A stretch of DNA of 64,000 bases from Escherichia coli (lineage in GTDB: Bacteria > Pseudomonadota > Gammaproteobacteria > Enterobacterales > Enterobacteriaceae), in the NCBI RefSeq assembly GCF_041248615.1, contig NZ_CP158426.1, one strand, 5' to 3'. The notes beneath the pieces were generated by a model. It saw only the letters and a program-made list of their open reading frames with translations, ran no database searches and was not told the DNA's origin. This document shows, one piece after another, positions 41,614 through 43,882 of the stretch; within the stretch, counting starts at the first letter, position 1, and every line of letters starts with the position of its first letter. The translations under genes were made by a program, and so were the position numbers.

Positions 41614-42456
41614 ATGTTGAATGCAAGACATCTTCCCGTACTGATGTACCATCATGTCAGTCGCTGTCCGGGGCTTGTGACACTTTCACCTGAAATATTT
41701 TGTGAACAGATAGAGTGGCTCGCAAAAAATAACTGGCGGACAGTAACATCCGCTGAACTTTAATATTTTTATCAGGGGGGAATGCTTCCAAGAAAGAGCT
41801 TCATGATTACATTCGATGACGGATATCTTGATAACTGGTTCCGGGCATGGCCGGTACTGAAGGAATACAATCTTCATACGCATATTTTTCTCATTACAGG
41901 GTTGATTGGTGACGGGAAGGTGCGTTACAGACAGAAACGGGAATATTCGCATCGCGACTGTGAGCAGTTGATTGCAGATAACCGTTCCGATGAAGTGATG
42001 CTTCGCTGGTCTGAAGTCCGGGAAATGCGTGATTCCGGTCTTGTTGAATTCCATTTACATACCCATTCACATAAACGCTGGGACAGACTGTCTGTACCAC
42101 GTACTGAGCAGTGCCGACTCATGGAAGAAGCTATTATGACAGGCAAACAATGTCTGAAGGAAAAACTGGGATACTGTAGTCCCCATCTATGCTGGCCTGC
42201 AGGATATTATAGCAGAGATTATATTAATCTCACCAGAGAACTTGGTTTATCTTATTTATATACAACGGAAAGAAGAATGAACTGCCCTGTAAAAGGTTCA
42301 TTACTTATAGGACGTATTAGTACAAAAGAACGGGAATATTGCGGTTGGCTGAAACGGTGCCTTTTTATTATATCACGCCATTTTTCTCTTCATTACTGGC
42401 TCTTCATAAGGGGCCAAGATTACCAGAGAATTAATAATGAAGATTTTATTCACTGA
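41614..42456 (+). pseudogene. Polysaccharide deacetylase (NodB-homology), premature stop
   Basis: N-terminal piece ends at a TAA ~41763; second ORF 41782-42456 carries TFDDGY and the histidine motifs. Confidence 0.55.
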
Positions 42457-43379
42457 GTCTTCACCAGATATTGGTGGCCAGGAGTTACAGGCTCTGGCAC
42501 AGATGACAGCGCTCCAGAAACAGGGGCATTCTGTTTTACTCGCCTGCAGGGAAAAAAGTAAAATAGCTCATGAAGCCAGAACAATCGGACATGATGTTAC
42601 TTTTATTCCTTTCAGGAACAGTCTTCACCTTCCTTCCATCATCAGACTGCGGCAGGTAATCCGGTAATTCAGACCTGATCTGGTAATCTGCCACAGTGGT
42701 CATGACAGTAACATTGCAGGCCTGAGCCGTCTGATATGCTGGCATCGTTTCTGTATTACACAGAGAAGTCAGGCAACAGTTACCTCCGCATATTCAGGGA
42801 TGGACAGAATCAGCGGGCAATATCCCGCTGATTGTCCAGGTGGGTATGTTGCGTCCCGAGAAAGGGCATGAATTTATGCTCCGGGTGTTGCACCAACTGA
42901 AGATGGAAGGGAAAGTATTTCGATGGCTCGTGGTGGGCGCTGGTCGTGAGGAATACGAAGAACGCCTTCGCCTGCAGATTGAATCACTGGGAATGAGTGG
43001 TGATGTTTTCATGGCTGGTGCTGTTTTCCCGGCGTTACCGATATACCGGGTTGCCAGTGTGCTATCATGCCTTCTGAAAAATGAGGCATTTGGCATGGTC
43101 CTGGCTGAAGCGTCAGCCTCCGGTGTTCCCGTTATTGCCAGTGAGACTGGCGGGATCCCGGATGCCATTCAGAAAAATGTGACAGGAACACTTTTACCTG
43201 TGGGAGATATGACTGCATGGACCAGTGCGCTTCGGGATTTTTTGTCCCGCCCGGAACGCTTCAGGATGATGGTTGCCAGCGCCAGAGAAGATATCGAATA
43301 CCGGTTTAATATCAACAGAACGGTACAGACCATTGTGTCTCTGGCTCATCAGACCGGGGGAAACGCAACAGGTAACTGA
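42437..43379 (+). pseudogene. GT4-family glycosyltransferase, frameshifted
   Basis: N-terminal ORF 42437-42667 and C-terminal ORF 42840-43379 (EAFGMVLAEASASGVPVIASETGGIPD) in different frames. Confidence 0.55.
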
Positions 43380-43543
43380 GGAACTCATTTTCTGTCCGAA
43401 TTCTGTTCATCGGTTTTCCGGTAACGGGGGATTTATTACATTTTACCGGGAGATGGTCAATACATTTAAATGCCGGAAACAGCAGACCTGCTTTCAGCCG
43501 GAGCGCACGGGGGCGATACTTTATCTTTTCCACTCTGCTGCAG

Positions 43544-43882
43544 GTGATTATCTTCAGCACCGGATACGGTGGAATAAATGGAATACGAGATTCACTGTTA
43601 TTCAGCTCCCTGTGGCGGATACCCGTGTTTCTTTTTCCAGAACGGATAAAAATTATTGCAGCGGTTGTCGGTATTATTCTCTGGACTACGTCACTGACAG
43701 CACTCTGTTATTATTTTATTTATAGTCATGAGTTCTCGCAGAGTGTTCTTTTCGCTATGTTTGAAACGAATGCCAGCGAGGCAGGAGAGTATTTCAGCCT
43801 TAAACTGTTGTTTATCACACGGGTATATACCGCAGTTTGCATTTTCCTGTGGACACGCCTGAAGGCAAAAATCAAAAAATAA
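43544..43882 (+). pseudogene. Phosphoethanolamine-transferase-like N-terminal membrane fragment
   Basis: Transmembrane region with FETNASEAGEY-type motif; sulfatase domain absent. Confidence 0.35.

What the first reader, a model, noticed from the sequence alone, without database searches (positions are those of the whole stretch)
41614..43882. Decayed cell-envelope modification cluster next to the integrase
Three same-strand genes (NodB-type deacetylase, GT4 glycosyltransferase, phosphoethanolamine-transferase-like N-terminus) are all disrupted. Intact, they would have modified a surface polysaccharide or LPS. Their decay suggests loss of a surface-modification function in this lineage.
Basis: partly seen in the sequence, partly recalled or inferred. 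Interest (0 to 1): 0.4.

Follow-up and report, generated by a model that had tools for sequence, protein, structure and literature searches.

The report
Dead ecf operon remnant in island
This is a broken, non-functional leftover of the known E. coli "ecf" cell-envelope-modification operon, carried inside a 98-kb mobile pathogenicity island that was already carrying it dead when it entered this strain; it is ordinary genomic debris.

Summary
Window 41614-43864 carries three co-directional pseudogenes: a NodB/CE4 deacetylase, a GT4 glycosyltransferase and the N-terminal quarter of a CptA-family phosphoethanolamine transferase. NCBI's PGAP already flags all three as pseudogenes in the identical public record (E. 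coli NRZ14408).

They are a divergent chromosomal copy of the known ecf operon (ecf1-ecf2-ecf3-ecf4/lpxM2) of pO157-type EHEC plasmids. That operon is homologous to Shigella shf(SfpgdA)-rfbU(Sfgtr4)-virK-msbB2.

- **Lesions:** two nonsense codons, several frameshifts, a 164-bp deletion and a lost start codon.
- **Large deletion:** one ~3.7-kb deletion with 6-bp microhomology (CGCCTG) removed the rest of ecf3, lpxM2 and a TPR gene. It fused the remnant to the spacer downstream of the integrase.
- **Constraint:** substitutions on this branch look neutral (28 nonsynonymous : 10 synonymous, against 6:15 on the intact sister copy).

The "loss in this lineage" reading is not supported. The same lesions occur in about 28 genomes. 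In the two compared, island DNA differs by 0.1% or less while adjacent core genes differ by 3.3-3.7%. The two nearest core relatives inspected have an empty ynjA|ynjB site. The 97.8-kb island therefore arrived with the cluster already dead.

Low interest; a new member of a known kind.

The parts
40413..40765 (-). yebF-like gene upstream of the operon and divergent from it; also a pseudogene. It has an in-frame stop at 40587-40589, and the signal-peptide part (ORF from 40765) lies in a different frame from the mature part.
   Evidence: tblastn of the LH50-c YebF-family protein gives 80% identity with an internal stop. The ORF list shows the split frames. It belongs to the block homologous to L003, window 40369-43861.
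41300..41613 (+). AT-rich region upstream of ecf1, conserved with the intact chromosomal copy. Presumed promoter/regulatory region; this is an inference.
   Evidence: The alignment with L003 is nearly identical; the plasmid copy aligns only partly. GC is ~0.40. The sigma-70 scan found no hit above chance here.
41614..42434 (+). ecf1 pseudogene (NodB/CE4 polysaccharide deacetylase, PgaB/IcaB-like; homologue of Shigella Shf/SfPgdA). Lesions: nonsense at codon 50 (41761-41763) and a 1-nt deletion at ~42361.
42434..43379 (+). ecf2 pseudogene (GT4 glycosyltransferase; homologue of Ecf2/RfbU/SfGtr4/CapU). Lesions: nonsense at codon 78 (42665-42667), a 164-nt deletion at ~42748, a -1/+1 pair at 43063/43077, and a -1 at 43356.
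43460..43864 (+). 5' fragment of ecf3 (CptA-family phosphoethanolamine transferase), covering codons 1 to ~143 of 573. The start codon is ATA; there are 4-, 8- and 12-nt deletions. The catalytic sulfatase-type domain is absent.
   Evidence: tblastn gives 74-75% identity to residues 1-144 of plasmid Ecf3. The intact protein scores 1053 bits on NCBIfam NF007933 CptA.
43859..43864 (+). Deletion junction with the 6-bp microhomology CGCCTG. This motif is present both in ecf3 and in the TPR-integrase spacer of related islands.
   Evidence: Three-way sequence comparison of the window, L003 and L008.
43865..43929 (+). The last ~65 nt of the ancestral TPR-integrase intergenic spacer. It contains a GC-rich hairpin (43891-43919) followed by a T-rich tail, terminator-like.
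   Evidence: Homology to L008 from position 6995 onward; terminator scan.
43930..45147 (-). Intact P4-type tyrosine integrase of the island (PGAP calls 43930-45117).
   Evidence: Pfam Arm-DNA-bind_3, Phage_int_M and Phage_integrase. PGAP annotation. It is 85% identical in nucleotides to an integrase next to a tRNA-Phe gene flanked by dicD and dsbD.
45301..45307 (.). Right-end copy of the 7-bp direct repeat CTCCTTA that flanks the 97.8-kb island. It overlaps the ynjA stop codon. The other copy lies next to the ynjB start, outside the window.
   Evidence: Left and right junctions compared with an empty site.

Best explanation
**What it is.** The region is an inert relic of the ecf operon. That operon consists of ecf1 (CE4 deacetylase), ecf2 (GT4 glycosyltransferase), ecf3 (CptA-family PEtN transferase) and ecf4 (a second LpxM/MsbB2 lipid A myristoyltransferase).

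**Where it sits.** It belongs to a chromosomal, island-borne lineage of that operon. The inferred ancestral integrase-proximal layout was yebF-like <- | ecf1->ecf2->ecf3->lpxM2-> | <-TPR <-int | att.

**How it decayed.** Point nonsense mutations, frameshifts and a 164-bp deletion inactivated ecf1 and ecf2. ecf3 lost its start codon. A single ~3.7-kb deletion between two copies of CGCCTG then removed the 3' three-quarters of ecf3, all of lpxM2 and the TPR gene. That deletion placed the remnant 65 nt from the integrase stop codon.

**Consequence.** None of the three products can be made in active form:
- Ecf1 is cut at codon 50, between the N-terminal YHH motif and the TFDDG motif.
- Ecf2 lacks most of its N-terminal Rossmann domain.
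- Ecf3 lacks its catalytic periplasmic domain.

**How it got here.** The decay happened in the island before the island spread by site-specific integration into the ynjA|ynjB spacer of several divergent E. coli backgrounds, including this one. The host lineage therefore did not lose a function through this locus; it acquired dead cargo.

**Shown versus inferred.**
- Shown: homology, the lesions, the deletion junction, the shared lesions across backgrounds, and the empty sites.
- Inferred: the ancestral gene order, the lack of any residual activity, and the biochemical roles of the intact enzymes.
For: **Identity**
- The remnant is 84-86% nt identical to the intact plasmid operon and 92-95% identical to the chromosomal copy in strain LH50-c, which has intact ecf1, ecf2 and lpxM but a frameshifted ecf3.
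- The plasmid operon is 93% identical to that of pO157 of EC4115 and to pO121, where the genes are labelled Ecf1, Ecf2, membrane protein and MsbB2.
- Literature describes ecf1-4 (PMC2323221).
- Shigella shf/rfbU match at 62/56-66% aa identity.

**Lesions:**. PGAP pseudogene flags. No lpxM2 homologue is present in the window.

**Deletion**
- L003, from the lpxM 3' end through the TPR gene plus 238 nt, is 97% identical to L008 5600-6943.
- The window resumes homology at L008 6995.
- The 6-bp CGCCTG lies at the junction.

**Relaxed constraint:** 28 nonsynonymous: 10 synonymous changes on the window branch (pN/pS ~0.8), against 6:15 (~0.12) on the intact sister branch; Fisher p = 0.001.

**Dead on arrival**
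- 28 records are 99.8% or more identical over full length.
- SFE8 and SCU-115 carry the same TAA codons, the same ATA start and the same junction.
- Island DNA differs at 2/5779 and 6/5779 positions, while the adjacent ynjA-ydjZ region differs at 46/1256 and 41/1256.
- Divergence starts 13 nt beyond the 7-bp repeat.
- Isolate 362 (NZ_OW967178) and MS 69-1, whose core flanks are 100% identical to the window, have an empty ynjA|ynjB site.
Against: - No expression or biochemical data exist for this locus.
- A 224-aa ORF (41782-42456) retains most of the Pfam NodB domain and starts at an ATG created by a Thr->Met change just after the nonsense codon. A re-initiated N-terminally truncated product therefore cannot be formally excluded.
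- The ancestral order ecf-TPR-int is pieced together from three overlapping loci (L003, L008, window). No single intact locus with that order was found.
- The pN/pS estimate is a rough three-taxon parsimony count.
- Only two other island-bearing genomes were compared base by base.
Confidence: 0.9

Rival explanations
1. In-lineage decay: the ancestor of this strain had a working ecf-type cluster at this locus, and the lineage lost the surface-modification function by mutation in situ.
For: The genes are clearly decayed, and the substitutions look neutral. The whole island is riddled with IS elements and pseudogenes, so decay after acquisition does occur in it.
Against: - Every lesion checked is identical in SFE8 and SCU-115, whose adjacent core genes differ from the window by 3.3-3.7% while the island differs by 0.1% or less.
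- 28 records share the full-length decayed form.
- The two nearest core relatives inspected have an empty site.
Confidence: 0.06
2. Residual function: one or more fragments are expressed and still do something useful. Candidates are the 224-aa N-terminally truncated deacetylase from ATG 41782 and the 179-aa C-terminal GT domain from 42840.
For: - The 224-aa ORF covers Pfam PF01522 profile positions 5-123 of 124.
- The EX7E-type motif region 'NEAFGMVLAE' survives in the 179-aa ORF.
- The ATG at 41782 is a derived change.
Against: - pN/pS on this branch is ~1.5 for ecf1 and ~0.5 for ecf2, about 0.8 combined, consistent with no constraint.
- In the PgaB/IcaB subfamily the CE4 domain is circularly permuted (PMC5855634). 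The conserved N-terminal 'YHH/YHR' strand aligned to IcaB 4WCJ lies upstream of the stop codon. From my own knowledge, this strand supplies the catalytic-acid histidine in PgaB.
- The C-terminus is frameshifted.
- The GT fragment lacks the acceptor-binding N-terminal domain.
- No promoter-like site above chance was found.
Confidence: 0.03
3. Sequencing or assembly artefact: the frameshifts and stops are errors in one assembly, and the genes are really intact.
For: Single-base indels are a common error type in long-read assemblies.
Against: The same indels, the 164-bp deletion, both TAA codons and the truncation are present in 28 independent complete assemblies from different laboratories and hosts.
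Confidence: 0.01

Closest known systems
ecf operon (ecf1-ecf2-ecf3-ecf4/msbB2) of pO157 and other EHEC/STEC large plasmids
   Same: - Same gene order and strand, with ecf2 beginning at the end of ecf1.
- Ecf1 is 85% aa identical, Ecf2 79-86%, and the Ecf3 N-terminus 74%.
- The operon is described as a lipid A/LPS modification system involved in bovine gut colonisation and is reported to be thermoregulated (PMC2323221; PMC2811833).
   Different: - This copy is chromosomal and island-borne, ~84% nt identical, so it is a separate allele lineage.
- All retained genes are pseudogenes.
- ecf4/lpxM2 is deleted.
- It is flanked by a yebF-like gene and, ancestrally, a TPR gene and a P4-type integrase rather than by plasmid genes.
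Chromosomal ecf copy of E. coli LH50-c / Ch1 (L003)
   Same: This is the closest relative: 92-95% nt identity across yebF-like, ecf1, ecf2 and the ecf3 5' end. It has the same upstream region.
   Different: - There, ecf1, ecf2 and lpxM are intact, ecf3 is itself frameshifted, and the TPR gene is retained.
- It sits in a different chromosomal island.
- Strain Ch1 carries both this form and the decayed ynjA-island form.
Shigella pWR100/pCP301 shf(SfpgdA)-rfbU(Sfgtr4/orf186)-virK-msbB2, and EAEC pAA2 shf-capU-virK
   Same: - Genes 1 and 2 are homologous: Shf is 62% aa identical to the remnant and 69% to intact Ecf1; RfbU is 56-66% identical.
- Gene 4 in Shigella is also a second lpxM (msbB2).
- The operon is PhoP-regulated.
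- SfPgdA and SfGtr4 mutants are lysozyme-sensitive and less invasive, and they form biofilm faster (PMC7355660).
   Different: - The third gene is virK (~316 aa), not a CptA-family PEtN transferase.
- It is plasmid-borne and intact.
PgaB / IcaB / BpsB poly-beta-1,6-GlcNAc de-N-acetylases (CE4, circularly permuted)
   Same: These are the best solved-structure relatives of intact Ecf1: IcaB 4WCJ at E = 1e-20, and BpsB and PgaB at 1e-13 to 1e-10. They share the TFDDG and H-x-H motifs and the N-terminal YH motif.
   Different: - Ecf1 scores far below the NCBIfam equivalog cutoffs (101 bits against 322).
- There is no pgaACD/icaADC synthase next to it.
- The substrate is unknown; peptidoglycan has been proposed for Shigella SfPgdA.
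CptA (Salmonella) / EptC (YijP) LPS-core heptose phosphoethanolamine transferase
   Same: Intact Ecf3 passes both NCBIfam CptA models (1053 bits against a cutoff of 404; 992 against 900).
   Different: - Only ~143 N-terminal membrane-domain codons remain here.
- It is a plasmid/island paralogue, not the chromosomal housekeeping copy.

Membership tests
ecf operon (pO157-type) | Co-directional order deacetylase - GT4 - CptA-like membrane protein - LpxM2 | tested here: not met
   The first three genes are present in the right order and strand. The fourth gene (lpxM2) is absent from the window, removed by the ~3.7-kb deletion. The locus is a remnant of the operon, not a complete member.
ecf operon (pO157-type) | Sequence homology of each gene to Ecf1/Ecf2/Ecf3 | tested here: met
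   85%, 79-86% and 74% aa identity to pO121 Ecf1, Ecf2 and Ecf3. Nucleotide identity to the plasmid operon is 81-86%.
ecf operon (pO157-type) | Intact reading frames | tested here: not met
   Two nonsense codons, at least five frameshifting indels, a 164-nt deletion, a lost start codon and a 3' truncation. PGAP flags all three as pseudogenes.
ecf operon (pO157-type) | Thermoregulated promoter with intrinsically curved upstream DNA (BNT2) | not tested
   Reported for pO157 (PMC2811833). Here I noted only that the upstream region is AT-rich and conserved with L003. No curvature calculation was made.
NodB / CE4 polysaccharide deacetylase (PF01522) | Domain match above the Pfam gathering score | tested here: met
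   79.7 bits against a cutoff of 23.1 for the 224-aa ORF.
NodB / CE4 polysaccharide deacetylase (PF01522) | All catalytic motifs on one uninterrupted polypeptide | tested here: not met
   The stop at codon 50 separates the N-terminal YHH strand (aligned to IcaB 'YHR') from TFDDG. The C-terminal 23 residues are out of frame.
GT4 glycosyltransferase (GT-B fold) | Both Rossmann-like domains present (PF13439 N-terminal plus PF00534 C-terminal) | tested here: not met
   The C-terminal domain scores 94 bits (cutoff 26.4). The N-terminal fragment scores 22.6, below its 28.5 cutoff, and is cut by a stop and the 164-nt deletion.
CptA-family phosphoethanolamine transferase | N-terminal EptA_B_N membrane domain | tested here: met
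   PF08019 scores 25.8 bits against a cutoff of 22.3. The fragment is 74-75% identical to Ecf3 residues 1-144.
CptA-family phosphoethanolamine transferase | Periplasmic sulfatase-type catalytic domain | tested here: not met
   Homology ends at codon ~143 of 573. Nothing further is present in the window.
P4-type integrase genomic island | Tyrosine integrase at one end, direct repeats at both ends, and an empty site in relatives | tested here: met
   Integrase domains. The 7-bp repeat CTCCTTA lies at both junctions and occurs once in the empty sites. The far end carries the CbtA/YeeU/antirestriction module.
P4-type integrase genomic island | Integration into the 3' end of a tRNA gene | tested here: not met
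   No tRNA is present in the window. The island sits in the 9-nt ynjA-ynjB spacer. The 85%-identical relative does sit next to a tRNA-Phe gene.

The most novel reading that the evidence does not exclude
The decayed cluster may be a passive marker of a still-mobile 97.8-kb pathogenicity island. The island carries aerobactin, sit, iha, ibrAB and a YadA-like adhesin.

Its P4-type integrase is 85% identical to one next to a tRNA-Phe gene, but it appears to have been retargeted to a 7-bp core (CTCCTTA) overlapping the ynjA stop codon, which is a non-tRNA site.

On this reading the island is currently spreading among divergent, largely poultry-associated E. coli lineages.

A more remote possibility is that the island-borne yebF-ecf-TPR-int module is the chromosomal source lineage of the plasmid ecf operon.
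Probability: 0.35. Interest if true: 0.35.

Novelty: new member of a known kind. Interest (0 to 1): 0.13.

Why it matters
It matters little for biology at large. The locus is a pseudogenised copy of a known operon and is already flagged as pseudogenes in RefSeq.

- **Annotation:** the three "family-level" pseudogene names can be replaced by ecf1, ecf2 and ecf3 remnants, with ecf4/lpxM2 deleted.
- **Inference from pseudogenes:** pseudogenes inside mobile islands should not be read as functional loss in the host lineage. Here the decay predates acquisition.
- **Strain typing:** the unique lesion set and the CGCCTG deletion junction are a convenient marker for tracking this ynjA|ynjB island among poultry-associated and human E. 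coli.

Tried and rejected
- **tRNA scan of the whole window:** no tRNA found, so integration into a tRNA gene is rejected for this island.
- **Rfam scan of 39000-45400 at E <= 0.1:** nothing. There is no hidden RNA element.
- **Sigma-70 promoter scan of 40300-44000:** 7 sites against 8.2 expected, so it is uninformative. Terminator-like sites: 8 against 3.1 expected. The only strong one is the hairpin at 43891-43919 in the integrase-proximal spacer.
- **Antisense and overlapping ORFs:** the ORFs at 41686-42054 (-) and 42794-43168 (-) were not scanned against Pfam. The 150-aa ORF at 43273-43725 (+) has no Pfam hit. All lie out of frame over the decayed genes, and I treated them as spurious.
- **Literature:** a search for an island at ynjA/ynjB found nothing relevant. 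The primary ecf paper, PMC1087426, is not held, so the ecf functions are cited from secondary sources.
- **Sequencing-error explanation:** considered and rejected, because 28 independent assemblies agree.
- **Homologous-recombination import of the island with long flanks:** considered and rejected, because divergence from SFE8 begins 13 nt beyond the 7-bp repeat.
- **Not used:** the large protein-database, structure-prediction and metagenome tools. The E. coli and plasmid collections already gave intact homologues and a complete explanation.
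Full report
**Source of the window.** Over the 52,000 bases compared, the window is base-for-base identical to the Escherichia coli NRZ14408 chromosome NZ_LT599825.1, to which the whole window maps at 2435672-2499671 (0 mismatches over positions 1-42000 and over 33400-52000). This allowed the public PGAP annotation to be used as an independent reading.

**Checking the observation.**
- The ORF list shows a run of same-strand fragments between 41614 and 43882.
- Pfam assigns them to Polysacc_deac_1 (79.7 bits), Glyco_transf_4 (22.6 bits, weak), Glycos_transf_1 (94 bits) and EptA_B_N (25.8 bits).
- PGAP annotates three pseudogenes at window 41614-42434, 42434-43379 and 43460-43864.

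**What the cluster is.**
- A megablast of 41400-44000 against 5,426 complete E. coli genomes matched 582 genomes. Most matches were plasmid-borne (543 places) at 80-90% identity, and the matched regions were annotated as deacetylase, GT4 glycosyltransferase and phosphoethanolamine transferase CptA.
- In the plasmid locus L002 the genes are intact and are followed by a fourth gene: deacetylase 273 aa, GT4 368 aa, CptA-family 573 aa, LpxM 311 aa.
- That 4.8-kb operon is 93% identical to the one on pO157 of strain EC4115. It is equally close to plasmids whose depositors label the genes Ecf1, Ecf2, membrane protein and MsbB2.
- This is the ecf operon. It has been described as a lipid A modification system conserved among EHEC plasmids (PMC2323221) and as thermoregulated through curved upstream DNA (PMC2811833).
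- Intact Ecf3 passes both NCBIfam CptA models, and the fourth gene passes the LpxM equivalog.
- Intact Ecf1 is most similar to the circularly permuted PgaB/IcaB/BpsB group of CE4 deacetylases (PMC5855634).
- Ecf1 is 69% aa identical to Shigella Shf. The window remnant matches Shf and RfbU of pCP301 at 62% and 56-66%.
- In Shigella the operon is shf(SfpgdA)-rfbU(Sfgtr4)-virK-msbB2. It is PhoP-regulated, and SfPgdA and SfGtr4 mutants are lysozyme-sensitive and less invasive (PMC7355660). The third gene differs there: virK, against CptA-like ecf3 here.

**Anatomy of the decay.** The closest relative is a chromosomal copy in strain LH50-c (L003; 92-95% nt identity over window 40369-43861). There, ecf1, ecf2 and lpxM are intact. 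Against it and against the plasmid copies:
- **ecf1:** GAG->TAA at codon 50 (41761-41763), and a 1-nt deletion at ~42361 that puts the last 23 codons out of frame.
- **ecf2:** GAA->TAA at codon 78 (42665-42667); a 164-nt deletion at ~42748 removing codons ~105-160 and shifting the frame; a compensating -1/+1 pair at 43063/43077 that rewrites six residues; and a -1 at 43356.
- **ecf3:** its ATG has become ATA (43460). It has 4-nt, 8-nt and 12-nt deletions, and it ends at codon ~143 of 573.
- **ecf4/lpxM2:** no homologue is present in the window.
- **yebF-like gene:** this divergent upstream gene (40413-40765, minus strand) is also broken, by a stop at 40587-40589 and a frame change.

**How ecf3 was truncated.**
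- The sequence immediately after the break (43865-43929) is homologous to the spacer between a TPR-protein gene and a related integrase in strain 23CRST013 (L008).
- In LH50-c, lpxM is followed by the same TPR gene plus 238 nt of that spacer, 97% identical to L008 5600-6943.
- The window resumes homology at L008 6995.
- At the junction, ecf3 reads ...GGACA CGCCTG CGGCC... The spacer reads ...TATGT CGCCTG AAGGC... The window reads ...GGACA CGCCTG AAGGC....
- So one deletion of about 3.7 kb, with 6-bp microhomology, removed the 3' 1.3 kb of ecf3, lpxM2 and the TPR gene. It left the remnant 65 nt from the integrase stop codon.
- This explains why the cluster is 'next to the integrase'. The ancestral order is inferred from overlapping loci, not seen in one piece.

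**Is there residual constraint?**
- I used the plasmid copy as outgroup and assigned changes by parsimony in the ancestral frame.
- The window branch carries 28 nonsynonymous and 10 synonymous changes in ecf1 plus ecf2 (pN/pS ~0.8). The intact LH50-c branch carries 6 and 15 (~0.12). Fisher p = 0.001.
- This is what neutral drift after inactivation predicts. The method is rough.
- Rfam finds no RNA element in 39000-45400, and promoter-like sites are not enriched.

**Context: the island.**
- The remnant lies at the integrase end of a 97.8-kb island inserted in the 9-nt spacer between ynjA and ynjB (record positions 2383173-2480975).
- The island is bounded by a 7-bp direct repeat, CTCCTTA, that occurs once in empty sites. 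The right copy (45301-45307) overlaps the ynjA stop codon.
- The window contains no tRNA gene. The nearest integrase relative (85% nt identity) sits next to a tRNA-Phe gene flanked by dicD and dsbD, again beside a TPR gene.
- Cargo includes iucABCD-iutA, sitABCD, iha, ibrAB, sodC, a YadA-like adhesin and dozens of IS fragments and pseudogenes. A CbtA/YeeU/antirestriction module sits at the far end.

**Was the function lost in this lineage?** No.
- Twenty-eight records carry the remnant at 99.8% identity or more over its full length.
- The integrase occurs at 99% identity or more in 29 records.
- In SFE8 (swine, China) and SCU-115 (human, USA) the island is at the same site, with the same TAA codons, ATA start and deletion junction.
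- From cytochrome b562 to the att core, these two differ from the window at 2 and 6 of 5779 positions. The adjoining ynjA-ydjZ region differs at 46 and 41 of 1256 positions. Divergence begins 13 nt beyond the repeat.
- Of the genomes whose ynjA-xthA flank is 99.9-100% identical to the window, none besides NRZ14408 itself appears among the listed remnant carriers. The two inspected, isolate 362 and MS 69-1, have an uninterrupted ynjA|ynjB junction.
- The island therefore entered several divergent backgrounds by site-specific integration after the ecf cluster had already decayed.
- Strain Ch1 carries both the decayed form and the more intact LH50-c-type form at different loci.

**Verdict.**
- The functional reading (envelope/LPS modification) is broadly right but incomplete: the cluster is the known ecf operon, its fourth gene has been deleted, and the Shigella homologue of gene 1 points to peptidoglycan.
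- The evolutionary inference of loss in this lineage is not supported.
- The locus is an inert, already-annotated remnant of a known operon inside a decaying but recently mobile pathogenicity island. Interest is low.

Noticed in passing
window 1-45300 (island continues upstream of the window; NZ_LT599825.1 2383173-2480975): A 97.8-kb genomic island sits between ynjB and ynjA, flanked by a 7-bp direct repeat CTCCTTA (right copy at 45301-45307, overlapping the ynjA stop). No tRNA is involved. The identical junction occurs in strains with 3-4% divergent core flanks, which suggests site-specific integration at a non-tRNA att site by a P4-type integrase whose 85%-identical relative sits next to a tRNA-Phe gene.
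   Followed up: partly
window 43930-45147 (-), with L003, L005 and L008: A TPR-repeat protein gene (~351 aa) lies directly downstream of related integrases at two other sites: next to a tRNA-Phe gene (L005) and next to glnH (L008). The same gene follows lpxM2 in LH50-c (L003). Its only NCBIfam hit is a weak one to the T3SS chaperone SctY (26 bits, below cutoff). This conserved int-TPR module is deleted in the window; its function is unknown.
   Followed up: partly
window 39526-39915 (+): An intact 129-aa cytochrome b562 paralogue (Pfam PF07361, 59 bits) lies ~1.7 kb upstream of the ecf remnant. A cytochrome b562 gene also lies near the intact ecf operon on plasmid p1604D011-1 (L002, 14356 onward), hinting at an older linkage.
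   Followed up: no
window 40413-40765 (-): A yebF-like secreted-protein gene lies divergent from ecf1. It is broken by a stop and a frame change. PGAP annotates only its 57-aa tail as an intact 'YebF family protein'. The same gene accompanies ecf in LH50-c and lies in the glnH-adjacent island of L008 (with an intact yebF there).
   Followed up: partly
window 36774-39076 (+): An intact ISEc12 (IS21 family, istA/istB) is inserted between the IS5 fragment and the cytochrome b562 gene. SCU-115 lacks it at this position, so it is a recent insertion in a subset of the island copies.
   Followed up: no
window 18824-20911 (+), 115-759 (+), 21845-23559 (+): The island cargo in the window includes an intact iha (siderophore receptor/adhesin), ibrB (with ibrA just upstream) and decayed ICE-type genes (TIGR03756/TIGR03757 pseudogenes). 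They sit among more than 25 IS fragments. The island is a mosaic graveyard with a few intact virulence genes.
   Followed up: no
window 35015-35901 (-): Three small intact genes lie next to one another inside the island: an SSB, a PerC-family regulator and a ProQ/FinO-domain protein. This set resembles a plasmid leading region. They are also present in SCU-115.
   Followed up: no
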